A stretch of 64,000 bases of DNA, taken from the NCBI RefSeq assembly GCF_009914755.1, contig NC_060947.1; one strand, 5' to 3'. Shown here one piece after another: positions 384-24,795 of the stretch (position 1 is the first letter of the stretch; every line of letters starts with the position of its first letter). The notes beneath the pieces are model-generated. The model had not been told where the DNA came from. It worked only from the letters and a program-made list of their open reading frames with translations, and searched no databases. Source of the stretch: the human T2T-CHM13v2.0 reference genome, Homo sapiens. The position numbers and the translations under genes are program-made.

Positions 384-1770
384 GAGGGGATTTATACTTC
401 TGGCTAAAATAGAGTAACAGGGACTAAATTTAATCTCCTACTTGAAACAACCAAAAAATAAAATAAAACATATTATATGGTGATTTTCAGGACACAGGGC
501 ACTAGCCAATGAAAAGCAGTGGTCTCTGAGTGATGGGAAACAAGGTAGAAGGGTTCTATAATTTTCTAAGCTTGCTACCTTGAGAGAGTTTCCAGGTCAT
601 GGTTCAGGGAGAGGGAACTGAAGCAGAGCCTGGTGGACTTCTGGTGAAGGTAGCTAGAGATCACAGGAGAGGGTAATGGATAAGAGATAGTTGTACAGAG
701 AAAGTACCCCAAATATCTGCACAGGGTCTTCCATAGGTATTAAGGAGAACATTAATCTGTTCCCCCATAAAAGCAATGAGAACACTAGGAAAAAAAAAAT
801 GACTTTTCAGAACTCTGGAAATTAACCAAACACTTGCAACAATCTAAGAAGCATTTATTCAAGAAAAACAGTTAAATCTTTATTGGAACAGATAGCACTG
901 TGGCATTTTTACTTGCTGTAGTCTGATAATCCACTCTCCTGCTTGATGGTAGCTTTGAAAACGTGCAACTTCAGAAATACAGCAACTGGAAAATTCAGCA
1001 GGCTAGTAACCACTGGAGAAGACAGAATGGGTTTGGAGCTCCCCAAAGACCCATCACCAGAGAGCTGTGACTATATGAGCTGTCTGGAAAATCCCGGGAA
1101 AAGCTTGTCTTTATTTTGACCTTACTCCAGGGCTTTGTCAGTGAGGAAAACCCTATCCGTAGACTGTCTGTACCCACAAAAATTGTTTTTAAAATAATTT
1201 ACAAAATCCATGGCAATTGTTTAACACTATAGTTCCCTGAGGAAATAATACTAGTTGGAGCAAAATAGAGGATGACAAAAAACTTAAAAGGAAAATATCG
1301 GGAATGAGATGTTTACAGGGAGCTTTAAAGAGCTCTGAAATTTTCCTGGGATTCTGAAGGGTGGGGGACAAATGTATGGCTGTGTCTATGCCCAGAAAGC
1401 ACCTGAGAAGGCCCTAATCACTCATGTAAGAGTGACCTTGATGCTCTGCACAAACAAGAAATGAAGATTAAGGCAGAATTATTAACTGCTTGCCAGGGAA
1501 TTGAGGGTTGCTCCACGTCAGCAAAAGGTGGGAGAATTATTAGTTCAAGGCATTTAAATAAATCTCTGTCCAATCACTGGCGACTAAGATAATTGAGCAG
1601 AGACTTGAGTGACTGTATACAATAAAGAACACAAACTTTTTAAAATTAGTCCGGGAAATTCACTAAATAGAAAAAAAAAAAACAGCAGCAACAACAAAAT
1701 AACAAACAGCAATAGCAATAAACCCTGGAAGGAGGACTAATATGATTTCCATAGGTGCCATATTATATAA
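384..1770 (+). mobile_element. Old LINE-1 (L1M/L1ME/L1MC-type) 5'UTR region, possibly two elements
   Basis: Start ACTTCTGGCTAAAATAGAGTAACAGGGAC and TTTTCAGAACTCTGGAAATTAACCAAA resemble L1M 5'-end consensus; 1500-1760 is homologous to the minus-strand L1 5' region at 61.5-62.4 kb. Confidence 0.65.
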
Positions 1771-1940
1771 TTATTATTATATATTATTACTTTAAGTTCT
1801 AGGGTACATGTGCACAACGTGCAGGTCTGTTACACAGGTATACATGTGCCATGTTGGTTTGCTGCACCCATCAACTCGTCATTTACATTAAGTATTTCTC
1901 CTAATGCTATCCCTCCCCCAGCCCCACACCCCCCGACAGA
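1771..1940 (-). mobile_element. L1PA (about PA5-7) 3'-end fragment
   Basis: TACTTTAAGTTCTAGGGTACATGTGCACAACGTGCAGG...CTATCCCTCCCCCAGCCCC; no TSD visible. Confidence 0.92.
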
Positions 1941-1959
1941 CTAAAAAGATCATGTTACA

Positions 1960-2298
<339 letters not shown>

Positions 2299-2303
2299 TT
2301 ACA

Positions 2304-2484
2304 TGATGAAGTAGAATTTATCCCTAAGAAAGGAGAATACAACATATACATATGAAAATTAATCAATGTCGTATACTATATTAACAGAATAAAAAAGCTG
2401 CATGATCATCTCAATAGATACAGAAAAATTTTTTTATGAAATTCACCATCTATTCATGATAAAACTCAACAAAATGAATATGGA
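2304..2484 (+). mobile_element. Old L1 ORF2 fragment (host of the flanking Alus)
   Basis: AATCAATGT...ATGATCATCTCAATAGATACAGAAAAA...ATGATAAAACTCAAC = degenerate RT region of ORF2. Confidence 0.8.
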
Positions 2485-2812
2485 GGCTGGGCATGATGAC
2501 TCACACCTATAGCCCCTGCACTTTGGGAGGCTGAGGTGGGAAGATTGCTTGAGCCCAGGAGTTCGAGCCTAGCTTGGGCAATGTGGCAAAACCTTGTCTC
2601 TGTAAAAAATAGAAAAATTACCCAGGTGTGGTGGTGTGCACTTGTAATTTCAGCTACTTGGAAGGCTAACATGGGAGAATCACTTCAGCCTAAGAGATCG
2701 AGGCTGCAGTGAGCCATGTTTGTGCCACTGAACTCCAGCCTGGAGTGCCACTCTCACTGACAGAGTGAGACCCTGTCTCTGAATAAATAAATAATAAAAT
2801 AAGTAAATAAAT
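2485..2812 (+). mobile_element. AluJ-like SINE
   Basis: GATTGCTTGAGCCCAGGAGTTCGAG and GAGGCTGCAGTGAGCCATG diagnostics; (TAAA)n tail. Confidence 0.9.
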
Positions 2813-2819
2813 ATAGAAA

Positions 2820-5254
2820 AAGCTTACCTTAACACAATAAAGACCGTATGTGAAAAACTCGAGGCTAACGTCATAATCAATGGGGAAAAACTGAAAACTT
2901 TTTCTATATGATCCAGAAGAAGGTAAGGATTCTCATGCTCACCACTGCTATTTAACGTAGTACTGAAAGTTCTACCCAGAGCAATTAGGCAAGAAAAAGA
3001 AATAAAAGGCATGAAAATTGGAAAGGAAGAAGTAAAATTATTTGTTTGCAGATAATATGATCATGTATGTAGAAAACCCTACAGAATTCACACACAAAAA
3101 ACTGTTAGCACTAATAAATAAGTCAGTAAAGTTGTAGAAAAATACATCATCATACAAAAATCAGTGGCATTTCTATACACCAACAATGACCTATCCAGAA
3201 GAAAAATTAAAAAAAAAAATCCCATTTACATTAGAGACAAGAACAAGCAAAAAGAAAATACTTAGGAATTAACTTAACCAAAGAGTTGTAAGACGTATGC
3301 ACTGAAAATCATAAAATATTGATGAAGAAATCTAGAAAAGACACAAATAAATGAGATGAGATCCCAAGTTTATGGACTAGAATAATTAATATTTTCAAAA
3401 TGTCCATACTACCCAAAGTGATCTACAGATTCAATGCAATTCCTATCAAAATCCCAAATGGCCTTTAAAAAATAGAAAAAAAAATCCTAATATTTGTATG
3501 GAACTACAAAAGACCTGAAACAGCCAAAGCAGTCTTGTGCAAAAGGATAAGCTGGAGGCATCATATTTCCTGACTCTAAGTTATATTATAGTAATTAAAA
3601 CATTACGGTACCAGCATAAAAGTAGACATACCGATCAATAGAATAGAACAGATAACCAAAAAATAAACGCACACATTTATGGTCAACTGATCTTCGGAGT
3701 GTCAAAAACGCAAAATGGAAAAAGGATAGACTCTTCAACAAATGGTATTGGGAAAACTGGATATCCAAATGCAAAAATTGAAATTAAATTCATATCTTAC
3801 ACTGTACACAAAACTTAAATAAAGATTTAAACATAAGACGTGAAACTACAAAACTGCTAGAAGAAAACATAGGGAAAAACCTTCTTAACATTGATCTTGT
3901 CTATAATTTTTAGGATGTAACTCCGAAAGCACAGACAACAAAAGCAAAAATAGACAAGAGTTATTACACCAACTAAAAAGCTTCTGCCTGGCAAAGGAAA
4001 AAATCAAGAAAACAAAAAGGCAACTCACAGAATGGGAAAAAGTATTGGCAAACTATGTATCAAATAAGTGGTTAGTATCCAACATATATAAGAAACTCAT
4101 AACAACTCAATACCAAAAATACAAATAACCCAATTAAAAAATGGGCAAAGAACCTAAATAGACGCTTCTCAAAAGAAGAAACGCAGATGGCCAACAGGCA
4201 TATGCAAAGGTGTTAAACATCTCTAATCATCAGAGAAATGCAAATGAAAACCCCAGTAAGATACCACCTCACACCTGTTAAGATGGCTATTACAAAAAAA
4301 AACAAAATATAAGTGTTGGTGAGGATGTAGAGAAAGGGGAATTTTTGTACACTCTTGTGGGAATGTAAATTAGTGCAGCCATTATGGAAAACATTATGAA
4401 AGTTCCTCAGAAAATTAAAAATAGAACTACCATAAGATCCACCAATCCCACTTTTGTGTATGTAGCCAAAGGAATTGAAAATAGCATCACAAAGAGTTAA
4501 TATTCACTCCTATGTTCATTGCAGCATTATTCACAATAGCCAAAATATGGAAATAACTTTAATGTGTGTGTGTATAATTAAATATTATTTAGTCTTAAAG
4601 AAGAAGAAAATCTTGCCACTTGTGACAACATGGATGGAACTGATGAACATCATTCTAGGTGAAATAAGCAAGACACAGAAATTGAAATACTACATGATCT
4701 CATTTAATATGTGGAATCTGAGATAGTCAAATTCAAGGAAGAAGAGAGTTGGATAGTTGGAGGAGGGAAGAATTGGGTAATGTTGGTCAAAGGGTACAAC
4801 ATTTCATCTTTGTAAACCAGTTTAGCAATTTCTTTTAAAAGTAAGCATACACGTACCGTATGAGCCAGTCTAAAAGTACCTAAGTAGTTATCCCAGAAAA
4901 GTTAATGTATATGTCCATACAAAAAAATTGTTGGTGAATTTTCATAGTGGCTTTATTTTTAATAGCCCCAATTTCAGTCTTACAAGATGAATAAGTTCTG
5001 GAGTTATAATATACAACATGGTGACAATAGTAAAAAATGCTATATTATATACTTGAAGTTTGCTATGAGGCTGGATCTTAAATTATATCTCAACAGACAT
5101 ACACAAATGGTAACTATGTAAAGGTTACCATTAATTAGTTAATTAGCTGGTAATAATTTCACAATGTATATTTATAACAAAACATCAAGTCATACGTTTT
5201 AAGTATATATAATTTTTATATGTCAATTATATCTTAATAAAGTTGTTTAAAAAA
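2820..5254 (+). mobile_element. L1MA (about MA8/9) 3' half: degenerate ORF2 and 3'UTR
   Basis: ORF2 homology (ORF 4475-4726 ...LPLVTTWMELMNIILGEISKTQK); L1MA 3'UTR ending TCAATTATATCTTAATAAAG; contains a templated insertion at 4805-4971. Confidence 0.85.
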
Positions 5255-6821
5255 GACCCGCAGCTAACATCATACTTCATTATGGAAGAATGAATACTTT
5301 CCACCTAAGATCAGAAACAAAGCAAAGATATCCACTCTTGCAACTTTTATTTAGTATTATACTGGATGTTTTGGCTAGTGCTAGAAGGAAATAATAAGAA
5401 ATGAAAGATGTACACATTGGACTTTTGATAAAGGTATAGCAATCAAGAAATGTGGTAGTAGCATCAAGAGAGACAAATAGATTAATGGAAAAAAAGAGTC
5501 CAGTAGTATGCCTACACATATATACAAAACTGATGTCTGAAAAAGGTAAAGGCAATTCGTGGATAAAGAAGGGTCTTTTTCAACAAAAGGTGCTGGAACA
5601 ATTGGATTTCCATGTGAAAATAAGGACCTTTGAGCCATACTTTACACCATATGCAAAACTTAATTCAAAATGGATCACAGACCTATGTGTAAGGCCTAAA
5701 ATCATAAATGACTAGAATAAGATATAATGAAAAATCTTTGTGACCACGAGCTAAGCAATGATTTCTTCGATATAACATCAAAAGTATAATCTATAATAGA
5801 TGAAAGGAAAGATTAATCACACTCCATCAAAATTAAAATTATCTGTTGTTCTAAAGACACTATTGAGAAAATGAAAACATGAGTTACAGACTGGGAAAAT
5901 ATATGCAAATCATAATCTGATAAAGGACTCATTCAGAACATATAAAGACTCTTAAAACACCCCAAAATTGAAACAAATAATCTGGTTTTTAAGTTGGGCA
6001 AAATATTTGAAAAGATACTTCACCAAAAAGGATATATAAATGGAAAACAGGCATATGAGAAGTTGCTCAGCATCACTAGTTTTTAGGTAAATACAAATTA
6101 AATCCACAATGTGACACCATTATGCATCTATTAAGTTAAACCTAAAATTAAAATGACTGACCATACCAAGCGTGGGTGAGAATGTGAAGGAGCTAGAACT
6201 CTCATATACTGCTAGAGGGAATGAAAAAATGGTACATCTTTGTAAACCAGCTTAGCAATTTCTTTTAAAAGTAAGCATACATGTACCGTATGATCCAGTC
6301 TAAAAATAACTAAGTAGTTATCCCAGAAAAGTTAATGTATATGTCCATACAAAAAAATTGTACGTGAATTTTCATAGTGGCTTTATTTTTAATAGCCCCA
6401 AACTGGAAACAATCCAGTTGTTCTTCAACAGGTAAATGGATAAGTAAATTGAGGTGTATTCATATAATGGAATACTATTCAGCAGTAAAATGGAATAAAT
6501 TGTCAATGCATGCTACAATATTGATAAATTTCAAAATAAGTATGGTGAGTGAATGAAGCAAGAGAAAAAGAGTATACACATTATTATTCCATTTATACAA
6601 TATTCTTGAAAATTAAAATGAATCTATAGTGAGAAAAAGATCAATGGTTGCCTGTGGATGATGGGGATGCAGAGGCATTACAAAAGGGACAGGAGGAAAC
6701 TTTTGAGTGTGATAGATATGTTCATTTGTGGTGATTTCAGGAGTTTAATGGGATATATGTCAAAACCCACCAAATTTTACACTTTATGTGCAGTTTCTTA
6801 TATGTTCTATACCTTATTAAA
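5255..6821 (+). mobile_element. Old L1ME-type ORF2 and 3'UTR (resumed host element, internally deleted)
   Basis: CAGCTAACATCATACTT ORF2 region; 3'UTR GGAAACTTTTGAGTGTGATAGATATGTTCATT...TATACCTTATTAAA. Confidence 0.8.
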
Positions 6822-7184
6822 ATTGTAAATTGCACAAAAATTGAGGAAATATTCTTTTAGTATTTGAATTCAGATTAATCAATGAATTCATTCATGTCAT
6901 TGATGGATGAATAAAATTTCAACATACATCATTGTTTTTTCATTTTAGTTTCACTCATTAACTTAAATAAAAATATCAACCAATGTTCATATCAAAACTT
7001 GACTCCTTCATCAATTACAAACATAGCCCAGCTAAGGATACAAGCTTCAGCAAAAGTCATTGAAAGCATTTTGTGAGATTCAATAGGCTATATGGAATTT
7101 ACAATAGAGTATTGTATATTTCATTATTATTTCTAAATTGTGTGCTACACATCATTTATATCAATAAAATCTGCAATATATCTA
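6822..7184 (+). mobile_element. MER63-type hAT transposon, piece 2
   Basis: GCACAAAAATTGAGGAAATATTC...GGCTATATGGAATTTACAATAGAGTATTGTATATTT...TGTGTGCTACACATC continues the MER63 consensus. Confidence 0.75.
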
Positions 7185-7255
7185 TGTATTAGTCAGAGAT
7201 ACACATCCCATTAGCCTGAAGACTGTGACTAATATATATATATATTATATATATG

Positions 7256-7289
<34 letters not shown>

Positions 7290-7885
7290 TCCTGTTGGTC
7301 TGGAGAACTCTAATACATAAATTTATATGTATATGTATATACAGAGAAGACTATCTATGTGTATGTATGTATATATCCGTATATGTATATATGAGAGAGA
7401 TTTATTATAAATAATTGGCTCATGGAATTATGGAAGCTGAGAAATCCCAAGATCTGCAGTCAGCAAGCTGGAGACCCAGGAGAGCTGATGGTGTAGTTCT
7501 AGTCTGATTCCAAAAGCCTGAGAACCAAGAGAGCTGATGATGCATGTTCCAGTTCAAAAACCAGCAGGCTTGAGACCCCTAAAAAGCTGATGTTTCAGTT
7601 CAAGTTCAAAGGCAAAAAAAAGACTGATGTCCCAGCTCAAGTGGTCAGGCAGGAGGAGTCCCCACTTGCTCATAAGAGAGTCAGCATTTTTATTCTAGTT
7701 AGGCCTTCAACTGATTGGATTGAGGTCCACACACATAACAGGGGCAATCTGCTTTACTCAGTTTACCAATTCAAAGGTCAAGCTCATCCAAAAATACCTG
7801 CACAGACACACCCAGAATAACATCTGACTAAATATCTTGGCACCCTATGGCCCAGTTAAGTTGAGACATAAAATTAAGCATCACA
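7185..7885 (-). mobile_element. MLT2 (about MLT2D) 3' LTR of ERV-L provirus
   Basis: Termini TGTATTAGTCAG ... CATAAAATTAAGCATCACA; PPT-like minus-strand AAATGGTGGAC adjacent at ~7887-7897; internal (TA)n(CA)n. Confidence 0.88.
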
Positions 7886-8194
7886 TGTCCACCATTTGTC
7901 AATTTGGCACCTAAACACATCTCATTAAACCACACTTCATCCCCAAATAAAAACAATAACAAGGTCATAATTCAGCCTAACATGATGCAACTGTCCTGTG
8001 TACAACTGAAAATTCACTAACCCCTTTTCTAGAAGAGGAGGTAAAATCCTTGAGTGATGTTTACTCTTTGCCTTGATGTCTCACAACTTAATTACCACGA
8101 TGTAAAGTTAATACATTTTATATTTCATGATAAAGGAATAAAAAAGGAAATAATACAAAGATGGTTGCTTAATATATATAAACACAAACTTATT

Positions 8195-8581
8195 AGATAT
8201 GGTTTGGCTCTGTGTGCCAGCCCAAATCTCATGCCGAATTGTAATCCCCACATGTCAGGGGAGGGACCAGGTGGGAGGTGATTGGTTCATGGGGGCAAAT
8301 TTCTCCCATGATGTTCTCATGATAGTAAGTGAGTTATCACAAGATCTGATGGTTTTAAAGTGTGGTACTTCCCCCCTCGCTCTTGCTCTCTCTTTCCTGC
8401 TTCACCATGGTAAGACATGCTTGCTTCCTCTTCACCTTCTGCCATGATTGTAAGTTTCCTGAGGCCTTTCAGCCATGCTTCTGTACAGCCTGCGGAACTG
8501 TGAGTCAATTAAACCTCTTTTAGTCATAAATTACCCAGTCTCAGGTAGTCCTTTATGGCAGTGTGAGAATGGAATAATATA
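8195..8581 (+). mobile_element. THE1 (about THE1D) MaLR solo LTR inserted in ERV-L
   Basis: GATATGGTTTGGCTCTGTG...CCCAAATCTCAT...TGTGAGTCAATTAAACCTCTTT...GTGTGAGAATGGA; TSD TTATT/ATATT. Confidence 0.9.
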
Positions 8582-8882
8582 ATATTCGTTATAAAATAAG
8601 GAAGAAATACGCATGATAATTATAGTTCTAATTTCTGTAACTGGCCATGTGGTCACAGTTAGCATTTATAACTACCTTCTTCCACTACTCATTCTGTGTT
8701 CCCTTTGCCTTCACAAGCATCTCAGCTGGTCACGGTTGTTTATCTGGTGGGATAACTGAAACCTTTATTCCTGAAGGTTCTGGGCCATTAAGCATCCTGC
8801 CTGGATTGGGTTATAGTTTTTCACTGACCTTAATCACAGGGCATGGTAATATTAAGAGATCCTCTAAGGAATCTCCTGTGTT

Positions 8883-9130
8883 TCAGACATATTCTTCCTT
8901 ACCTTCATTATGGAGTAGTAGTTCAATTTTCCATTGGTATTCAGGCTCAATCACACCAGCCAACACCATGAGTCCCTTCTTTGCCTGCTGATTAAGATGC
9001 TTGAGGGGACCAAAGTGGCTGGGCAACAGTCTTAATTTCCAAGTCAATGGAGTTGTTGTTATGTCTTCTGGTAGAAGCATTCCTGCCTTTGGAACTAAGG
9101 CCTCTAGGTCAGCAAGGCATAAGGTCATGG
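8883..9130 (-). pseudogene. ERV-L dUTPase relic
   Basis: LEALVPKAGMLLPED...WKLRLLPSHFG...AKKGLMVLAGVIEPEYQWKIELLLHN, located 3' of integrase as in ERV-L. Confidence 0.85.
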
Positions 9131-9149
9131 GAGCAGGAAACAAAAATCT

Positions 9150-11530
9150 TGCTAGTGGGTTACTAGGGGTAATAATGAGCGATTCCACTCTCATTTGTAC
9201 CCCTAGATTTTTGGAACTGTGAATCTTGGCTATGGGAGCACAGCATCATATATTGGATGCTGATTCAGAGCATATAGACCCTTCTGGAGGAACCTGCCCT
9301 AACCTTAAAAGTATTGTTACCAAGTTGATTCTGTAACTGAGTCTTGAAAAGGCCATTCCACTGTTCTTTCAAGCCAGCTGCTTTAGGATAGTGAAGAATA
9401 TGGTAAGACCAGTGAATTCCATGACCATGGACTCACTGCTATACCTCTTTTGCTGTGAAGTGAGTTCCTTGATCAAAAATAATGCTGTGTGGAATAATAT
9501 GATGGTGGATAAAGCATTCTGTAAGTCCATGAATGATAGTTTTTGCAGGAGGTATTGGTCCCTGCTGCTATCAGATTGGGCACTCAGCAGTGACTGTAGC
9601 CAGGTACGCCTTGGTGAGTGGGAGTCCATGTTGCTGAGCCCATCGATTACCTCCATCACAGCCATCATGACCACTTTCTTCATAAACCCATTGGTGATGA
9701 TGGAAGTGGCTGAGTAAAGAGCCTGACTGCTATCTACAGAACAGATCATACTGTCCACTTGATTATTAAAATCTTCCTCTGTTGAGGTAACCCTTTGGTG
9801 AGCATTTACATGGGGAACAAAATCTTCACTTTTTTGCCCATTCAGAGAGGTCTATCCATATATTTCTTTCCCAAATTTCCCTGTCATAAATTTTCTAATC
9901 ATGTTCCTTTCAAGTCCCTGACCATCCAGCCAAACCATTGGCTATAGCTCATGAATTAGTATATAATCTCATGTCCAGCCATTTCTCCTTTCAAGCTAGT
10001 GAACAACTAGGTACACTACTCAACATTCTGCCCACTGAGAGGATTTTCCTTCACCACTCTCCTTAAGGGACATCCTAAAATGAACTGTAATGTGGCAGCT
10101 GTTTACTCTTGGGTGGTGCCTGTATATTGTGTCAAACTGTCTGTAAACCAGGCCTGAGTCTTCCCTTCTTGTGTCAACTGATAATAGAGAACTCCTCATA
10201 AGGCCATAGGTACAGGCTGGGAGACAGAAGACGGCGTAGCAGGAGAGGGAACCATGGATATTTGGGCCACTTCTTCATTTAACTTACATTTGTCCTCAGA
10301 ACCTGCTCAGGCCTTATCACGTATATATCACTTTTATTTGATGATGAAGTGACCCCCAACTTTATAGCTTGGTGTGTCAGAAAACACCAAGTTCATGATG
10401 TGCAGCTCAGGTTGCATGGTAACTTTCTGTCCCATGTTCAAGCATTCAGTCTCTACTAAGGCCCAGTAGCGGGCTAAGAGCTGTTTCTCAAAAGGGGATT
10501 AGTTAACCACAGAGGATGGCAAAATCCTAAGGGCCTGCGCTGTGATTCACTTCTAGGGGACTGCCAAAGGCACCAAACAACCTCCGTATCTGCTACTGAC
10601 ACTTGAAGCATCATTGGTTCGGCTGGGTGATGTAGCTCAAGCGACAGAGAAGCTTGCACAGCAGCCTGGATCTTATTCTGGGCCCCACTCAAAACTAGCA
10701 GGTTTACAGGTCACTTGGTAAATAAGATGGAGTAACACACTCAAATGAGAACTATGTTGTCTTCAAAATCTAAAGAGGTCCACTCAGCATTGTGCTTCTT
10801 TCATTGTAGGAAAGGCCAAATGTAGCAACTTATCCTTCACCTTGGAAAGGATATCTTGAAAGGCTTCACACCACTGGACTCCAAGAAATTTTACTGAGGT
10901 GGAAGGTCCTTGAACTTCTGTCAGATTTATTACCCACTCTCTGGCACACAAATGTCTTACCAATAAGCCTAGAATAGTTGCTACTTTTTGTTCACTGGGT
11001 CCAAGCAGCAGAATATCATCAATGTAATGAATTAGTGTGATAGCTCGTGGAAGGGAAAAGTGATCAAAATCCCTCTGAACTATATTATGACATAGGGGTG
11101 AACAGTTGATATACTCTGAAGTTGGACCAAGAAGTTGTATTGCTGGCCTTGCCAGATAAAAGCGAACTGCTTCTGGTGGGCCTTATGTACAGGGATGGAG
11201 AAAAAGACATATGCCAGACTAATACATTTATACTATGTATATATCAAGGGATGTGTTAATTTGCTTAAACAATGACACTATATCTAGTACAGCAGCTGCA
11301 AGAGGTTTACAGTAATACACTGTCATATGAAGATCCATCTGTCTTCTGCATAGGCCAAATGGGCAAGCTGAAAGAGGATATGGTGGGAATCACCATCACC
11401 ATTTTTCAAGTGCTTAATGGTGGCACTAATCTCTGCAATCTTGCCAGGAATGTGCTATTACTTTTGGTTTACTATTTTCTGAAGTAGAGGCAATTCTAGT
11501 GGTATTCACTTGGCCTTTTCCACCGTAATG
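9150..11530 (-). pseudogene. ERV-L pol relic (RT-RNaseH-integrase), with stops, frameshifts and deletions
   Basis: LIHYIDDIL at ~11010-11035; ORF 10474-10692 (AAVQASLSL...MLQVSVAD...RRPLGF) resembles the connection domain. Confidence 0.85.
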
Positions 11531-11532
11531 GC

Positions 11533-11820
11533 TCACACTCTATAGGTCTGGAAGCCACTGTGATAATTCTGCCAGCTGTTGAGTATATCTATTCCAATTA
11601 TGCATTCTGGAGCTGGAAAAATAAACACAAGATGGGTTTGAAGACACACTAGACCAACTGTGAGACAGATCTGAGCTAAAACTTCTTTGATCACCTGACC
11701 TCCATAACCCCCTACTGTGACTAGTGGACCACATTGATATTTTGGAATTATTTTCACTTCAGAGCCAGTGTCTTGTAGTCCCTCAAATATCTGATTATTT
11801 TCTTTCCCCCAAATGCACAA
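11533..11820 (-). pseudogene. ERV-L aspartic protease relic
   Basis: FEGLQDTGSEVKIIP...GGYGGQVI...PECIIGIDIL. Confidence 0.88.
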
Positions 11821-11829
11821 TTACCTTGG

Positions 11830-13545
11830 TAAAAGGTCATAGGCCCCATTGGGGAAGGCTGGGATAAAGATTAACAGAATAAATTTTTTCAGTGTATCAG
11901 GGTCCTTCCTCTAGGAGACCTGGTTTCCCCTTCATTCAAGGGGTTCTGGGTAGGTAAACTGGCTAAAGTCAGAAAATTGATTGACTATCTGTTTTTATGA
12001 TTCAGGTTAGACTTTGGCTCACTTTACCTAGAAATTTTCTGCTCATCCAGATTAAGTAAGAATTTAGTAGGCTTCCTAACTACTTCACTTTTAGGGACTC
12101 CGTGATTAAGTAGTTAATACCATAGGTCTGCACAAGTCAGATCATTCTGATGCTGCTTTGACTCTGTTGTCCCTTATGGTAACCATGCCCACCTTGTCTT
12201 TGGCAGTTGAGTGCTGCACTTGGCCCCTGCCACACCAGAATCTAGGTACTCCCATAGCATTTAGGTTTCCCAATTCAGTCACTGCAGTTTTCACTGTAAG
12301 GTCTGGCCTACAGAGAAGAGCAACCACAGAATTCTTCAAGAATGCTGAGACTCCCCTCACAAATTTATGTGAATGATATGTCTTCTGGACCTTTCAAGGA
12401 TAAATGAGAAGACCTTAAATGACAAATCCACTGAAACATCCCAATCTCTAAACTTTTGAATCTTTCCTCTACATTAAACTCTACATCAAACTAAGGTAGG
12501 TCTGGCATTTTCAATTTGCCACTGGAGGCCTTTTGGTCCTTCTTTCAGCTATTCACCCAAACAATTACAGTATTTTCTAACTCCATAAGCTGCAACATTA
12601 AATGCAGAATCTCTAGTTAGTGAGCCCATATCGACAAATTTGGCCTGATTCAACTTTATGTTCCAGGTACCATTATCCCAAATTCTTAATATCCATTCCC
12701 ACATATGTTCCCTGGATTTCTGTCTGTTGACAGAAAACTCAAATAGTTCTTCTGGAGTATAGTATACCTCCTCATGGTTTGTACCTCACTTTTAGGGGCC
12801 TGCTGGGGCTTGAATCTACTTATCAGTGTAGAAGCAAAAAGGAGTGGTGGGAGTAAGTTCTGAGAAGACTCAGCATTGTCCTGCACAGCAACTGCCTCAG
12901 GGGAGGCCGTTACACTTTTCCCAGGCAATGCAGGGTTAATCCTCTCAGACAAGGGTAGAGAAGTCGCTACCACTGGGGGTACAGAGGCCTACTTAACTGG
13001 CAAAGAAGTGTCATAATTTAGGAGCTCTATGTCCCTAGCTTCGTTATGGGCTTCCCACATATCCCCACTCCAAAATTCAGGACCTCATCTCTTCCCAATA
13101 AATGCCTTCACTTTATCAGTAGACAATCTACAAAGCTGGAAGTTTAACTTTCATTGTAATTCAGCCAGTTTCAGGTTGAAACTCTGGATTTGATTTTCAG
13201 CAATCTCAGTCCTATGGATACAGGAGATAAAGGTCTCCTTCAGGGCACATATAGAAGCTTTCAGATCATTTATGTGGCACTTGACCTGGGAATTTGAATC
13301 CCTGAGCTCATTCTTTTCTTTCTCTATTGTATCTAGCAACATCAGGAGCAGCCAGACAATCTCATTACATTTGTTGGTTTGCAAAAAAATGTTTGGGTGT
13401 ATCATATACAAATCATCCAGATCTTTGTTTCTTATAAGTGGTTGATTAGGAGTATTCAATATGATATTTTGCTTTTATCTATTGCCAGATCACACCATGG
13501 ACCATCAGTGCTCTCTTTACTACTGAAAATAAAGTCATTAGTGTC
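11830..13545 (-). pseudogene. ERV-L gag relic
   Basis: ORFs 13151-13459 (WLLLMLLDTIEKEKNELRDSNSQ coiled-coil), 12686-12973 and 12142-12360 resemble ERV-L gag. Confidence 0.8.
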
Positions 13546-13555
13546 TTTTTAGATT

Positions 13556-14078
13556 AAGACTTTTTTATTGTATAATGTAAGCTGTGCAACATGATATTTT
13601 GATATACGTATACATAGTGAGGCAATTGTTACTTTTAAGCAAATTAACATAACAGTCATCTCATATAATTACCTTTCTTTTTCTTTCTTCTTTATTTTTT
13701 TTGTAGTAAGAGTACCTAAAACCTATTCTCTTAACAAATTTCCAGTACACAATACAATATTATTAACTATAGTAACTATAGACCCCATGCTACACATTAG
13801 ATCTCTAGATTTATTCATCCTATATAACCACACCTTTGTACCTTTTGACCTTCATCTCCCCACACCCCAACAACTGTTTCTATTCATTCAACTTTTTTTT
13901 TTAGATTCCACATATAAGTCAGATCATGCAGTGTTTTTCTTTCTCTGTCTGGTTTATTTCACTTAGCATAATGTCCTCTAGGTTCTCCATGTTGTCGCAA
14001 TTGACAGGATCTCCCTTTTTAATGCTGAATAATATTCGATTGTATATGTACACCACAATTTCCTTATCCATTCGTCAA
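13556..14078 (-). mobile_element. L1MA (about MA9/10) 3' end
   Basis: AATACAATATTATTAACTATAG...CATTAGATCTCTAG...TTAGATTCCACATATAAGT...TTATTTCACTTAGCATAATG. Confidence 0.85.
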
Positions 14079-14375
14079 CAATAGTCTGAAGTCCAGAAAA
14101 GACTGATGTTGCAGTTCAAATAGTCAGGCAAGAGGAGCCCCCTCTTACTCATGGGAGGCTTATGGGAGGGTAAGCCATTTTGATCTATACAGGCCTTCAA
14201 ATGATTGAATGAAGGCCACCCATACTGGAGAGGGCACTCTACTTTACTCATTCTGCCAATTCAATTGTTAATGTCATCCAGAAATATCCTTATGGAAACA
14301 CATAGAATAATGTTTGACCAAATATCTGGGCATCCCACGGCCCAGTCAAGTTGACACATAAAATTAACCACCACG
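14079..14375 (-). mobile_element. MLT2 5' LTR of the provirus (only about 300 bp retained)
   Basis: Colinear with 7600-7885, ending CCCAGTCAAGTTGACACATAAAATTAACCACCAC. Confidence 0.88.
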
Positions 14376-14457
14376 ATTTATGTATAGCAATATAAAGCAG
14401 CAAATAGATATTTTTTCTGGAGATCTGGTTGTTAAACATTTACCAGAACACCACTGG
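14376..14457 (+). mobile_element. MER63-type hAT transposon, piece 3 with right terminus
   Basis: CTGGTTGTTAAACATTTACCAGAACACCACTGG = MER63-type terminal inverted repeat. Confidence 0.8.
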
Positions 14458-14929
14458 ATGGAGAACAAGTATTTGGCTTCTGATAAGTTTATCCTGGTGG
14501 TAGGCAGGGTTTCTACCTCTAAAGCAGATGCTTCTCTTTGCTCTGGATCTTAGGAAAAATAAAACACCTCATATCTAGACACACTGGCAACCCCTTTGTC
14601 ATTTTACTTACAGTCAGAGAACAAGAACCTGCTGACACCTTATATCAATTAGGTGCCATATGCCTGTCAGTCAGTTGGTGAAAAAAACTGTCTTGTCCCT
14701 AGCTCTATTGATTGCAATCTTTTATAGAGCACTCCAGTTTAATGGAGATGGTAGCTGATATTTAGTCATTTTGTACCTATTTCACCCTTCCTTTCTTCTT
14801 CCTCTGCTTGACACAAATTTACCCTTGTACCTGACAAGACAAATAGCTTGGAAACATGAGTTGTCACTTGAACTTGAACGTAAAGATTTTAGGCTGGTAT
14901 TCAAATATTGAGTGAACATGTTATACCCT

Positions 14930-15390
14930 AAGCATTCTTAGGAGTATGGAGCATCTTATTCATTTTTATATTCCCCTAAAGGGTCAGGCTCATTGCCTGA
15001 ATGTAGTAAGTATTCAATATATATTCGCTAAATAAATGAGACCTCAAGGTGCATATGATTTGCCTACTGTCCAATGTCCTTTACCATGCTTATCTTGGCT
15101 TGCTCATGGTACATATTTTCTTTGATTTTAATTCCATGAAGACAAAACTTGTTGTCTCATATTCACCAAAATATTTCCTCACTGAGCACAGATTCCGGCA
15201 TAGAGCAAAAGTAGCTGGAAAAAATTTTATTGAGGAAATGAATGAACAAATAAACTTTGGGCAAGTTATTTAATCTCCCTGAACTCTTGTTTCCTAATAT
15301 GGAAAGTAGCATTACTAATCCCATTGTGCAAATATATGTATAAAGTTCCTAGAACGTTGCTTGGCACATAGCAGGTAATCAATAAATGTT
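14930..15390 (+). mobile_element. Two L2 3'-end fragments followed by a MIR
   Basis: TAGTAAGTATTCAATATATATTCGCTAAATAAATGA (L2 tail); TTTGGGCAAGTTATTTAATCTCCCTGAACTC (MIR core). Confidence 0.6.
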
Positions 15391-16433
15391 CATTTTCTTC
15401 CTTTCTTGTTCCCTTTGCCTCATCCTGACGATGTACCTGGATGCATATCCTATACCCATTTTCCATAATGACTTTGTTCTAGCAAGCAACCTAGTAAACC
15501 AAGCTATCAAGTGTCTGTTAATGGCCAATATCAATTTAATTCTCAGGGAATTTACAGATGAAAAACCTTCAAGATTCAAAGCTGTAAGTTGGAAAGAAAG
15601 GCTTTTCAGACCCCATGAGCAAAGTTAGAGGAAATATTTTGGGCTGAGGCATGATGCTTCTTAGAGTGTACAGTGTTCCAGCATGCTTTCCCTTATTCAC
15701 AAATGTAACTCTGTCACAGCTATTTTCTTTCTCAGGAGTGACCCCTGAAGATCTTTAGCACATAAGACCATGGGTTATGAGTTTTTTGGCTCGCCCACTC
15801 TAGGAAGTAAGAATGTTCAGAATTTTCACACTCTTAAAGCCAAGGTTTCAACTTCATATTGGACCAATTAAGACTTTCATGAATGAGCCTAACTCATTCA
15901 AGATAACTTTTGAGAAATTCATCTATTCATCTGCCTCTCATCTTAGATGTAGATTCTAGTTTTAGTTGTACCAAAGCTTATCTTGAGGCAATCCTGCAAC
16001 TTCTCTATGCAGTTCTCTCTCCATAAAGCAGATTTGTAAATATGAATCAAGAGAGAATTGGATAAAGAAAATGTGATGCTTTCACACAGTGGAATACTGA
16101 ACTGCAGTTAAAAGGAATGATCTAGATCTCAAAACGATGAATGAAGAAAGCAAGATGCATACTGTATGATATCTTTGAAACAAATTAAAACACACAAAAA
16201 TAATACTACATATTTTCACATATGTAGAAGTATCAAAATGTTCTGTAAGAAAATTCAGAAACCAATAACACTTTTTACCTTTGGGGGGAAAATGAAGGCA
16301 CAAGAAGGTTTCTTGGATTGGGAGAAAGTTGCCAGCTTTATCTGTAGTGTTCTATTCCGAATTAAAAATATTTTTATCTAGTTTTCTAAAATCAAGAACA
16401 TTCTATTTTTCTTTAAAAGGGACAGTTAGACTA

Positions 16434-16776
<343 letters not shown>

Positions 16777-18544
16777 AATTCTATGGCTTTAAGATACAAG
16801 GAGAAATTCAGTAGTGAAAGGTTGCAACAGTATCTCAAAATTCTCTTGAGATGGAGATGCACACTTCTCTGGGATAAATAGATCACGTTAAAATGGCCCC
16901 AAGACAGGGAGATAAAGAAGACAATCTCCAGGAGCCCACTTTGGGTAAATTTTTTTCTTGGGAGATCAGAGCAGACCACCTTTATTTCAACCCCGTGTGT
17001 CTATGAAAACAAGCAAAGATGTTCTCTTCAGCTCTCTTAAATGAATGATTGCTTTCTGGGATCCTGCATGAGCTATGTCTGGGCATCAGTGGAGGATCAG
17101 AAGTGCTTGGTTACCAGATGGCCTACTACAGAGAGATCGAATTGTCTCAGATATTTCCCACCATGGCATACTTCCATCTTTTGACAGAAAAATCAAGGAA
17201 AAATGTTTTCTCTGCAGAAATTCCTCGTGCGACTTACTTTTCTTTTATGCTAACTGCTGCTGCTAGTAGAAACTGCTCTAAGCAGAACTGCTTTATCTTT
17301 GATGGGTAGGCAAGGGCTTGTCTGAAATTAAAAGACCCAGACATCCGATTGCCACTGAATGAGGTAAAAGAGACAGAAAAATTGATCAGAAACTACTCTT
17401 TTACTCCCACCAGTTGTCTGTCTCTTTCCTCTTTCCTTCCTTGTGTCTCTATCTCTTCTAGGTCAGCAATGCAGGGCTGTTAGAGACCTTCAGTCCTGGA
17501 GATGCTCCCTTTCCCCTCTATACCAATTGCATTTGTTATACTCATTCCTGCCGGTACCACAGTGGTCATGCCAGTGGCTAGATGCATTTGGAATTCTTTC
17601 CCATTTTCCTCTGGGCCTACATCTAGCCCCTCCTTCAAGAAGCCTTCCCTGACCACCTCAGTACACAGTGACTGCTCTTTTCCCTGTACTCTTATGACTT
17701 ATTAGCTGAACCATACAGATTAATCTCTCATCATTTAGATAATGTTAACCTTCTTTCTCTATCATCCTATTTCATAAACAGGGCTGAGATTTAGACGAAT
17801 GGGGGACAGTGGCCAAAGGCAATGGTCCATCAAGGCTCAGATGTTCATACAATCCTTCACCACCATTTTTTTCTCCCACTTAGAGTGAAAATGTTAGGTT
17901 AACGTTTGGGTGGAGGACACCATGAGCAAATGAGCAAAGTAGATAGATGAATCAATTTGATAAAGAAAAGCCCTTTAGGGCTCCTGCACATCATTTTCTA
18001 AAAACCTGGCAGCAATCTATCACACCTAGGTCTATTCATCAAATAAATAATTTGATAGGTTTTTTTAAAAAAATGAATTTAGCTGCTGACTGGATATGCT
18101 ACCTTTGTCATAGCCTGGAAATCTCTCTACTGGGCAATATAGAGATTTTTTCAAAAGCTTATAAATACCAAGCCCATTTTTCCTAATACACAGGAGCCCA
18201 AAAAGATCCCTAGGGTTTCAGGCTATCTAATAAATAATCTACATCTTTTGTTTCTGAAAAGAAGAAATCAATCAGCCCAGCTGGCTTCTTAGATTAGCTT
18301 TCTAACTCAGAGAGAATTTATCATCACTCTTATTACTGTACTTAGCTTGGATGTCAGACTCAATTTAGGGTTCAGCACTGAGAATCACAAGTCACAGATC
18401 AGCTAACTGTGACATTAATCAAATGAATCCAGTATATGAGGGATAGAGCCAGTATGATCCTTTGGCAAGTAGAGACTTTCCCAAGTTACTACCTTGCACA
18501 TTCAAAAAAATAATTTGTGCTTGGGCACAGGGTAAGACTAGAAA

Positions 18545-18715
18545 ATGGTGGGAAGGAGGGCTTACAAAAGCATGGAAACTTTTGAAGGTGATGGATATTT
18601 CTATTTATCTTGATTGTGGTGATGGTTTCACAGGTGCATACATATGTCAAAACATATCAAGTTGCACACTTTAAATATTTTTACTGCATTTCAATTATAT
18701 CTCAAGAAAGCAGCT
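18545..18715 (+). mobile_element. L1ME-type 3'-end fragment
   Basis: TTATCTTGATTGTGGTGATGGTTTCACAGGTGCATACATATGTCAAAAC. Confidence 0.8.
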
Positions 18716-18800
18716 TTAAGCATTTGAAGATATACATTTTTTAAAATTGCATTTACTCATTGAGAAAAATTATCATATGGCATAATTTCTACCTTAACCC

Positions 18801-18922
18801 CAGTGGCTAAGATAACTGACTGTGGAGTTAGACAGACCTATGGCTGTCACTTACTAGCTGAATTTCTTTGAGGTTTTTATCCTCTTTAAATCTTATTCTC
18901 CCATCTGAAATATGGGAATTGT
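18801..18922 (+). mobile_element. MIR, 5' part (resumes at ~26015 and 26345-26415)
   Basis: CAGTGGCTAAGA...GGAGTTAGACAGACC...CACTTACTAGCTG...CATCTGAAATATGGG; 3' part AGGGTTAAATGAGATAATGCA at ~26371. Confidence 0.75.
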
Positions 18923-18931
18923 TTTTTAAAA

Positions 18932-18932
<1 letters not shown>

Positions 18933-18962
<30 letters not shown>

Positions 18963-19233
18963 TTGAGACTGAGTCTGGCTCTGTTGCCCAGGCTAGAGTG
19001 CAGTGGCACGATCTCAGCTCACTGTAACTTCTGACTCCCGGGCTCAGGCAATTCTCCTGCCTCAGCCTCGTGAGTAGCTGGGATTACAGGCACCTGCCAC
19101 CACACTAAGCTGATTTTTGTATTTTTAGTAGAGACAGGGTTTCACTGTGTTGGCCAGGCTTGTCTCAAACTCCTGACCTCAAGTGATTCATCACCTTGGC
19201 CAAAGTGCTGGGATTACAGGTGTGTGCCCAGCC
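18933..19233 (-). mobile_element. AluS SINE with (ATT)n tail
   Basis: Reverse-complement Alu dimer with small deletions near its 5' end. Confidence 0.92.
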
Positions 19234-19462
19234 TTTAAAATTATTATTATTATTATTTATTATACTTTAAGTTCTAGGGTACATGTGCACAACGTGCAGG
19301 TTTGATACATAGGTATACATGTGCCATGTTGGTTTGCTGTACCCATCAACTCATCATTTACATTAGGTATTTCTCCTAATGCTATCCCTCCCCCAGCCCC
19401 CCACCCCCTGACAGGCCCCGGCGTGTGATGTTCCATGCCCTGTGTCCAAGTGATCTCATTGT

Positions 19463-23383
<3,921 letters not shown>

Positions 23384-23446
23384 TATGATATTAGCTGGTT
23401 ATTTTGTCCGTTAATTGATGCAGTTTCTTCTTAGCATCGATGCTCT

Positions 23447-24463
23447 TTACAATTTGGCATATTTTTGCAGTGGCTGGTACCGGTTGTTTCTTTCTATGTT
23501 TAGTGCTTCCTTCAGGAGCTCTTGTAAGGCAGGCCTGGTAGTGACAAAACCTCTCAGCATTTGCTTGTCTGTAAAGGACTTTATTTCTCCTTCACTTATG
23601 AAGCTTAGTTTGGCTGGATATGAAATTCTGGGTTGAAAATTCTTTTCTTTAAGAATGTTGAATATTGGGCCCCACTCTCTTCTGGCTTGTAGGGTTTCTG
23701 ACGAGAGATCTGCTGTTAGTCTGATGGGCTTTCCCTTGTGTGTAACTCGACCTTTCTCTCTGGTTGCCCTTAACACTTTTCAACCTTGGTGAATCTGACA
23801 ATTATATGTCTTGGGGTTGCTCTTCTCAAGGAGTATCTTTGTGGTGTTCTCTGGATTTCCTGAATTTGAATGTTGGCCGGCCTTGCTAGGTTGGGGGAAG
23901 TTCTCCTGGATAATATCCTGAAGAGTGTTTGCCAACTTGGTTCCATTGTTCCCATCACTTTTAGGTACACCAATCAAACATAGATTTGGTCTTTTCACGT
24001 TGTCCCATATTTCTTGGAGGCTTTGTTCATTTCTTTTTACTCTTTTGTCTCTAACCTTGTCTGCTTGCTTTATTTCATTAATTTGGTCTTCAATCACTGA
24101 TACCCCTTCTTCCACTTGATCGAATCGGATATTGAAGCTTGTGCATGCGTCACGAAGTTCTCATGCCATGGTTTTCAGCTCCATCAGGTCATTTAAGGTC
24201 TTCTCTACACTGTTTATTCTAGTTAGCCATTTGTCTAATCTTTTTTCAAAGTTTTTAGCTTCCTTGCAATGGGTTCAAACATCCTCCTTTAGCTCAGAGT
24301 AGTTTGTTATTACTGACCTTCTGAATCCTACTTCTGTCAACTCATCGAAGTCATTCTCTGTCCAGCTCTGTTCTGTTGCTGGCTAGGAGCTGCAATCCTT
24401 TGGAGGAGAAGAGGCACTCTGATTTTTAGAATTTTCAGCTTTTCTGCTCTGGTCTCTCCCCAT
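23447..24463 (-). pseudogene. L1 ORF1, disrupted
   Basis: ATG at 24463; RNEQSLQEIWD.VKRPNL and ARREWGPIFNILKEKNFQPRISYPAKLSF in different frames. Confidence 0.93.
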
Positions 24464-24795
24464 CTTTGTGGTTTTATCTACCTTTGGTCTTTGATCCTGA
24501 TGACCTCAGTTTGAAATGCAGAAATCATCCATCTTCTGTGTCAATCATGCTGGGAGCTGCAGACCAGAGCTGTTCCTAATTAGCCATCTAAAATTATTTT
24601 TAATTTTTAATTGATACATAATAGTTGGACATATTTATTTATATGTATGTTTATGGGGTACATGTGATATTTTGATATATGTATACAATGTCTAATAATA
24701 AAATCAAGGCAATTGGGATATCTACCACCTCAAACTTATCATTTCTTTATGTTGGGAATGCTGTATATATTCTCTTCCAGCTATTTAAAAATATA

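What the first reader, a model, noticed from the sequence alone, without database searches (positions are those of the whole stretch)
24460..24590. Candidate new class of spliced, retrotransposed LINE-1 (SpIRE): +97 donor joined to an acceptor 41 nt upstream of ORF1
Seen: on the minus strand this TSD-flanked L1PA reads AGATGGCTAATTAGGAACAGCTC...GATTTCTGCATTTCAAACTGAG|GTCATCAGGATCAAAGACCAAAGGTAGATAAAACCACAAAG-ATG(ORF1). The junction is at 24505/24504, so only ~84 nt of the 5' end and 41 nt before the ATG remain, and roughly 0.8 kb of 5'UTR is missing. Established: CTGAG|GT at about +97 is the known L1 5'UTR splice donor, and described SpIREs use acceptors at about 622, 790 and 976 (Larson et al. 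2018). From recalled consensus, older L1PA read ...CCATCTGTAG|GTCACC... at this point (an AG acceptor), whereas L1HS reads CTGTAC. Inference: a GT-AG intron was removed before reverse transcription, using an acceptor later lost from the lineage. The spliced RNA would keep both ORFs, so it could mobilise in cis, but the integrated copy would lack most of the internal and antisense promoter.
Basis: partly seen in the sequence, partly recalled or inferred. Interest (0 to 1): 0.8.

Follow-up and report, generated by a model that had tools for sequence, protein, structure and literature searches.

The report
Spliced LINE-1 copy using unreported acceptor
An old LINE-1 copy in a TRPC5 intron lacks about 0.9 kb of its promoter region exactly between a known splice donor and an AG just before its first gene, and two other human loci carry the same join, so it is most likely a retrotransposed spliced RNA of a rare, undescribed type.

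Summary
On the minus strand, the L1 at about 19241-24589 reads ...CTGAG|GTCATCAGG... at 24505/24504, and the ORF1 ATG follows 41 nt later.

In 29 of 29 intact L1PA loci the same CTGAG is followed by GT. In 17 of 26 the base pair before GTCACC is AG. The 7 copies that read AC or AT form a well-supported younger clade. The missing 875-920 nt therefore begins GT and ends AG.

Junction patterns (up to 3 mismatches) found three loci in the T2T genome: this one, chr3:43.51 Mb and chr12:47.64 Mb. Their flanks are unrelated. The reversed-pattern control gave 0 hits. The three copies share no private variants. The chr3 copy is about 2.5 times more diverged and lies outside the clade that holds the other two. 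At least two separate splicing events are likely.

Larson et al. 2018 list acceptors at 622, 790, 853 and 976 only. This one falls at about L1.3 position 869.

The type is rare: 3 spliced copies against 8,313 unspliced donor sites.

Verdict: a new, small class of SpIRE, and a modest extension of known biology. RNA evidence and primate orthologues were not available.

The parts
19246..24589 (-). Whole L1 copy: 5' segment, join, 41 nt of 5'UTR, decayed ORF1 and ORF2, 3'UTR and an A-rich (AAT)n tail at 19246-19258
   Evidence: Searches give the sequence. One search shows it is colinear with the chr12 copy over 5.3 kb at 89.5-92.5% identity. One search shows only ORF fragments of 185 aa or less, so the copy is old and decayed.
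24505..24589 (-). First exon remnant: 85 nt of the L1 5' end, ending in CTGAG, the exon side of the known 5'UTR donor
   Evidence: In 29 of 29 intact loci the homologous CTGAG is followed by GT.
24504..24505 (-). Exon-exon join (CTGAG|GTCATC)
   Evidence: The same join occurs at chr3 and chr12.
24464..24504 (-). The 41 nt of 5'UTR kept in front of ORF1, which is the start of the acceptor exon
   Evidence: Intact older-type copies read AG immediately before the homologous GTCACC.
24461..24463 (-). ORF1 start codon
24589..24598 (-). 5' copy of the putative target-site duplication, AATAATTTT(A)
   Evidence: local alignment of the flanks. The sequence is low complexity, so this is only moderate support.
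19236..19245 (-). 3' copy of the putative target-site duplication, directly behind the A-rich tail

Best explanation
This is a spliced integrated retrotransposed L1 (a SpIRE) of a type not yet listed. A transcript of an older L1PA element was spliced from the known 5'UTR donor (CTGAG|GT, G98U99 in L1.3 numbering) to an AG that lies 41 nt before the ORF1 start. That removed about 0.9 kb of 5'UTR. The shortened RNA still carried both ORFs, so its own proteins could copy it back into the genome by target-primed reverse transcription (inferred). The integrated copy keeps only about 85-97 nt of the promoter region and none of the middle of the 5'UTR. It was therefore probably unable to drive further rounds. 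This last point is inferred from Larson et al.'s promoter assays on the smaller 97/622 deletion. The same splice happened at least twice. The AG was later lost (AG to AC or AT) in the younger L1PA lineage.
For: - Exact boundaries: the window join is CTGAG|GTCATC, 41 nt before the ATG.
- Donor side: 29 of 29 intact loci have GT after the homologous CTGAG.
- Acceptor side: among the 26 loci picked by 5'-end likeness that had both seeds, 17 have AG before GTCACC, 7 have AC or AT, and 2 have AA. Three intact near relatives of the chr12 and chr3 copies also read GT...TAG|GTCACC.
- Recurrence: three junction patterns with up to 3 mismatches each found the window, chr3:43507283 and chr12:47635480 as the only loci with the L1 5' segment joined at this point. 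The reversed controls gave 0 hits.
- Independent loci: 900-nt flanks on each side show no cross-matches.
- Retrotransposition marks: poly(A) or A-rich tails at all three copies.
- No common spliced ancestor is visible. There are 0 private shared variants in 689 columns and 0 between the window and chr12 copies in 2,004 columns. Window-chr12 identity is 92.8%, against 92.3-93.5% to 8 unrelated copies.
- The chr3 copy is older. Its end branch is 0.098 against 0.036-0.041. It has 110 odd sites against 41 and 32. It lies outside a starred 27-row clade that holds the other two.
- The donor is experimentally proven, and the SpIRE route is established (Larson 2018, PMC5860796, sections 6, 7, 16, 17 read).
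- A crude home-made score ranks this AG 1st to 7th of 76-89 AGs in 14 intact 5'UTRs. This is weak support.
Against: - No RNA evidence exists for this splice.
- Both boundaries share the 4-nt string AGGT. A microhomology deletion or a reverse-transcriptase template jump would leave the same scar.
- The AU test did not reject holding all three copies in one clade (p 0.074), nor the window and chr12 copies together (p 0.34). Independence rests on divergence and tree position, not on a formal rejection.
- Target-site duplications are low complexity at the window and unclear at chr3 and chr12.
- The type is very rare: 3 copies against 8,313 unspliced donor sites.
- The chr3 copy also has a second, non-GT-AG internal break.
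- No primate orthologue could be examined.
- The acceptor score is ad hoc, not MaxEnt or HSF.
- Genome DNA searches scored only 40 of 551 to 19,863 candidates.
Confidence: 0.85

Rival explanations
1. A full-length L1 inserted here and later lost about 0.9 kb through a genomic deletion between the two AGGT strings (microhomology-mediated end joining).
For: A 4-nt AGGT is present at both boundaries in intact relatives. No orthologue was checked.
Against: The identical join occurs at two other loci with unrelated flanks. The 5' break falls at the base of the proven donor. Three identical independent deletions among about 8,300 elements are very unlikely.
Confidence: 0.03
2. The join was made during reverse transcription. 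The L1 reverse transcriptase jumped from the acceptor-side AGGT to the donor-side AGGT on an unspliced RNA, without the spliceosome.
For: The microhomology is the same as above. The chr3 copy has a second internal break that is not GT-AG, so non-splicing rearrangements do occur in these copies.
Against: It would have to recur at exactly the same two bases in at least two events of different age. One of those bases is the known donor that all published SpIRE classes use.
Confidence: 0.06
3. One source element acquired the shortened 5'UTR once, by splicing or by deletion, and was transcribed from an outside promoter. All three copies are its offspring.
For: The AU test does not reject one clade (p 0.074 for all three, 0.34 for the window and chr12 copies). 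The chr12 copy may carry 40 nt of foreign 5' sequence, which hints at an upstream start site.
Against: There are 0 private shared variants. The chr3 copy is about 2.5 times more diverged and sits outside the clade of the other two. The 5' segments are only 69-73 of 84 identical to each other, while each has 39 other genomic matches at 91-95%.
Confidence: 0.06

Closest known systems
SpIRE97/622 (Larson et al. 2018, PLoS Biol, PMC5860796)
   Same: Same donor (G98U99). The splice lies within the 5'UTR and both ORFs are kept. The element is otherwise full length with a poly(A) tail.
   Different: The acceptor is about 250 nt further downstream, at about L1.3 position 869. I worked that position out from the paper's statement that A974G975 lies in codon 22. 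About 0.9 kb is removed instead of 524 nt. The copies are of an older type. The paper found no 97/622 copies in L1PA7 or older, and its 116 copies are in L1PA1-6. Here there are only 3 copies.
SpIRE97/790 and SpIRE97/853 (same paper)
   Same: Same donor, and the splice lies within the 5'UTR. They are examples of an acceptor that is used only while a given 5'UTR version exists.
   Different: The acceptors differ. Those have RT-PCR support from reporter constructs and this one has none.
SpIRE97/976 (Belancio et al. 2006, not held here; Larson 2018)
   Same: Same donor. Nearly the whole 5'UTR downstream of +97 is removed.
   Different: The 976 acceptor lies inside ORF1 and truncates ORF1p. Here ORF1 stays whole, with 41 nt of leader.
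L1 copies with internal deletions or 5' truncation
   Same: Part of the 5'UTR is missing.
   Different: Those breakpoints are scattered. Here the same GT...AG boundaries recur at three loci.

Membership tests
SpIRE (spliced integrated retrotransposed L1) | The 5' boundary of the missing segment lies at a splice donor (G98U99, CTGAG|GT) | tested here: met
   29 of 29 intact loci have GT after CTGAG
SpIRE (spliced integrated retrotransposed L1) | The 3' boundary lies directly after an AG in unspliced relatives | tested here: met
   17 of 26 loci picked without regard to the acceptor have AG, and 3 of 3 near relatives of the chr12 and chr3 copies have it
SpIRE (spliced integrated retrotransposed L1) | The same junction at several independent insertion sites | tested here: met
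   3 loci; flanks unrelated
SpIRE (spliced integrated retrotransposed L1) | Marks of target-primed reverse transcription (target-site duplication, poly(A) tail) | tested here: inconclusive
   Tails are present at all three copies. The duplication is 9-10 nt and low complexity at the window, and unclear at chr3 and chr12.
SpIRE (spliced integrated retrotransposed L1) | The spliced RNA is detectable and promoter activity is reduced | not testable with these tools
   Needs RT-PCR and reporter assays
Published SpIRE classes 97/622, 97/790, 97/853, 97/976 | Acceptor at A620G621, A788G789, A851G852 or A974G975 | tested here: not met
   The acceptor exon starts 41 nt before the ATG, at about L1.3 position 869. 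Larson 2018 sections 7, 16 and 17 list no such site. Its supplements contain no 'L1PA7', 'L1PA8' or 'TRPC5'.

The most novel reading that the evidence does not exclude
The AG 41 nt before ORF1 was a live acceptor, used repeatedly in L1PA elements of roughly 20-50 million years ago. Its change to AC or AT on the branch leading to the younger families was favoured because it removed a splice that strips the promoter. After that change the 97/622 route became the main one. On this reading L1 purges harmful splice sites as its 5'UTR evolves.
Probability: 0.15. Interest if true: 0.5.

Novelty: new member of a known kind. Interest (0 to 1): 0.33.

Why it matters
This finding extends the SpIRE catalogue to older L1PA elements and adds an acceptor that modern L1 no longer has. 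That fits the published idea that changes in the 5'UTR shift L1 splicing over time. It also flags three 'full-length' L1 annotations that actually lack nearly the whole promoter. The effect is small: 3 copies, about 0.04% of elements with this donor. The mechanism is already known.

Tried and rejected
- An 83-nt junction probe as a DNA search matched in full only to itself. The other 39 scored hits covered one side only, and only 40 of 798 candidates were scored. I therefore switched to pattern searches.
- Of the 47 matches to the acceptor-side pattern, 3 carry the join. The 27 fetched as L039-L065 are uninterrupted 5'UTRs. Two more were fetched later. One is intact (L085). The other (L084) is a different, imprecise deletion. 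The remaining 15 were judged only from their matched letters.
- I searched for the source of the 40 nt of non-L1 sequence at the chr12 5' end. Only the locus itself matched.
- The three best 3' matches of the chr3 copy might have shared its second break. They do not. They run on into ORF2.
- An AU test of one clade for the three copies did not reject it.
- Belancio 2006 and 2008 are not held, so I could not check whether they list this site.
- Literature searches found no paper describing this acceptor.
- No primate genomes, Dfam, or MaxEnt/HSF scoring are available here.

Full report
**What is there**

Read on the minus strand, the window holds an L1 copy from about 24589 down to 19246. Its 5' end (AGATGGCTAATTAGG...) runs for 85 nt to CTGAG at 24505. 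The next base, 24504, starts GTCATCAGGATCAAAGACCAAAGGTAGATAAAACCACAAAG, and the ORF1 ATG follows at 24463-24461. Exactly 41 nt of leader therefore remain.

The 3' end has the usual L1 terminus and an A-rich (AAT)n tail. A 9-10 nt repeat of the 5' flank, AATAATTTT(A), follows the tail. An Alu sits directly behind it.

The ORFs are broken into fragments of at most 185 aa, so the copy is old. The missing piece is nearer 0.9 kb than 0.8 kb.

**Are the boundaries splice sites?**

The window's own genome (T2T, 3.1 Gb) could be searched. An 83-nt probe across the join brought in 29 other L1 loci that matched only its 5' half. In 29 of 29 of these, the homologous CTGAG is followed by GT (GTACC... in most).

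In 27 of those 29 loci an ORF1 start could be located. It lies 916-961 nt after the donor in 26 of them and 665 nt after it in one. With stricter seeds, 26 of these loci gave both boundaries:

| Bases before GTCACC | Loci | Notes |
|---|---|---|
| AG | 17 | Mostly ...CCCCATCTGTAG\|GTCACCAACATC |
| AC or AT | 7 | All in one younger clade |
| AA | 2 | Single G-to-A changes |

In a tree of 44 rows, the 7 AC/AT copies all fall in one strongly supported clade (100/98). That clade also has ATCATC instead of AACATC. No tool named the subfamilies.

The removed segment is 875-920 nt in 40 of 41 intact loci and 1041 nt in one. It starts GT and ends AG.

**Is the join unique?**

It is not. Three patterns laid across the join, each allowing 3 mismatches, found the same three places with the L1 5' segment fused at this point:

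- the window;
- chr3:43,507,283 (plus strand);
- chr12:47,635,480 (plus strand).

The reversed control patterns gave 0 hits in these calls.

The acceptor-side pattern matched 47 places in all:

- 3 are the spliced copies.
- 27 were fetched and are all ordinary uninterrupted 5'UTRs.
- 2 more were fetched later. One is intact. The other is described under "Other things seen".
- 15 were judged only from their matched letters.

The 900 nt on each side of the three copies show no cross-matches, so these are separate insertion sites and not duplications.

The chr12 copy is colinear with the window copy over the full 5.3 kb (89.5-92.5% identity) and ends in A11. The chr3 copy ends in A12. It has a second internal break that joins ORF1, about 93 nt in, to the last 1.3 kb.

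Target-site duplications at chr3 and chr12 are not clear.

**One event or several?**

The evidence favours at least two separate splicing events.

- The three 5' segments are only 69-73 of 84 identical to each other. Each has 39 other genomic matches at 91-95%, and the two lists do not overlap. Only 40 of 1241 and 40 of 551 candidates were scored.
- In the 44-row tree (5' segment plus up to 600 nt after the acceptor), the three copies do not group. The window and chr12 copies lie in a starred 27-row clade with different intact partners. The chr3 copy lies outside it.
- No pair of the three shares a variant that is private to the pair, or carried by at most one other row. Among intact pairs, 29% share at least one such variant.
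- Over 2,004 columns of the 3' part, with 8 further copies added, the window and chr12 copies share 0 private variants. They are 92.8% identical, no closer than to the unrelated copies (92.3-93.5%).
- The chr3 end branch is 0.098 against 0.036 and 0.041 for the other two. In a three-way comparison of the last 1.3 kb, chr3 is the odd one at 110 sites, against 41 for the window copy and 32 for chr12.

Against this, an AU test did not reject forcing all three into one clade (p 0.074) or the window and chr12 copies into one (p 0.34).

My reading is that the chr3 copy stems from an older event. The other two come from a younger, star-like burst. Whether those two are separate events cannot be settled here.

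**Mechanism**

- Shown: a GT...AG-bounded gap that starts at the donor used by every published SpIRE class, found at three unrelated sites, each with a tail.
- Established (Larson et al. 2018, PMC5860796; sections 6, 7, 16, 17, 21 and 22 read): spliced L1 RNAs retrotranspose. G98U99 is a working donor conserved in L1PA1-10. Loss of 5'UTR sequence cuts promoter activity.
- Inferred: the RNA spliced here kept both ORFs and was copied in cis. The product, with a leader of about 138 nt, lacked the promoter and left no offspring. This fits the absence of any shared lineage marks.

A crude score of my own (pyrimidine share, -3 base, +1 G, no nearby AG) ranks this AG 1st to 7th of 76-89 AGs in 14 intact 5'UTRs. 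It is not a validated method.

**Rivals**

The string AGGT occurs at both boundaries. A microhomology deletion or a template jump by the reverse transcriptase would therefore give the same sequence. Recurrence at identical bases, in copies of different age and at a proven donor, argues against both.

A single shortened source element is not formally excluded, but the divergence data argue against it.

**How common**

An unspliced-donor pattern with up to 3 mismatches matched 8,313 places, so the spliced form is about 0.04% of such elements. Larson et al. report about 2% for L1PA1-6. The pattern searches will have missed copies with more than 3 changes, on both sides of the ratio.

**Comparison with print**

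Larson et al. list acceptors A620G621, A788G789, A851G852 and A974G975. They used L1.3-based probes at more than 95% identity and state that no 97/622 copies occur in L1PA7 or older.

Their statement that A974G975 lies at positions two and three of codon 22 puts the ATG at 910. The present acceptor exon would then start at about 869. Their 8 supplementary files hold no 'L1PA7', 'L1PA8' or 'TRPC5'.

Searches of the held library found no description of this site. The passages shown from the 2025 preprint on L1 chimeras mention acceptors at 622/625, beside position 89 of L1PB1 and upstream of position 5203 of L1PA5. Belancio 2006 and 2008 could not be read, so an earlier mention there cannot be excluded.

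**Verdict**

This is a new, rare class within the known SpIRE phenomenon and is of modest interest. Primate orthologues, subfamily names and RNA evidence remain open.

**Other things seen**

- The non-GT-AG second break in the chr3 copy.
- Possible foreign sequence at the 5' end of the chr12 copy.
- An older-type L1 at chrX:75.69 Mb whose 5'UTR gap ends at the same GTCATC.
- An Alu inserted into the L1's 3' target-site duplication.
- A short tandem duplication in ORF2 of the window copy.

Noticed in passing
L034:1150-1180 (chr3:43,507,450-43,507,480): The chr3 spliced copy has a second internal break. ORF1 stops about 93 nt after its ATG (...CAGAACACCTC) and the sequence resumes in the last 1.3 kb of ORF2. 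The ORF1 side is not followed by GT in relatives, so this is not a canonical splice. It may be a later deletion or a template jump.
   Followed up: partly
L035:901-969 (chr12:47,635,400-47,635,468): An A22+GT run that matches the 3' flank (A11+GT) is separated from the full L1 5' end (GGGGGCGTTCCAAGATGG) by about 40 nt of non-L1 sequence. This could be a 5' transduction from a source transcribed from upstream. A genome search found no second copy of it.
   Followed up: partly
L084:150-260 (chrX:75,692,230-75,692,340): An older-type L1 (ORF1 starts ATGAGGAAAAACC) has a 5'UTR that breaks at ...TCTGAACTGGG and resumes at GTCATCAACAT, the same acceptor-exon start. Intact relatives read ACTGGGC(G/A)GAATTC or ACTGGGTGGAATTC. 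The break fits GT/GC...AG only if one G is discounted. It is a single locus and remains unexplained.
   Followed up: partly
window 18933-19233 (minus strand): An Alu lies directly behind the L1's 3' target-site duplication. It has its own TTTTAAA duplication (19240-19234 and 18931-18925), so it inserted into the L1's flank after the L1 did.
   Followed up: no
window about 21215-21309: The window L1 carries a short tandem duplication of about 45-60 nt in ORF2 relative to the chr12 copy. It shows as overlapping alignment blocks and an extra 34-nt self-match.
   Followed up: no
L024, L025, L026 (chr2:98.06, 96.55, 96.28 Mb): Three intact L1 copies on chr2 are identical or nearly so over the 689 columns compared. 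They probably lie in a segmental duplication and should count as one in the tallies.
   Followed up: no
L050 (chr3:122,288,028): A younger-type copy reads CCATCATCAAAG|GTCACCATCATCAAAG. A local duplication has recreated an AG at the acceptor position.
   Followed up: no
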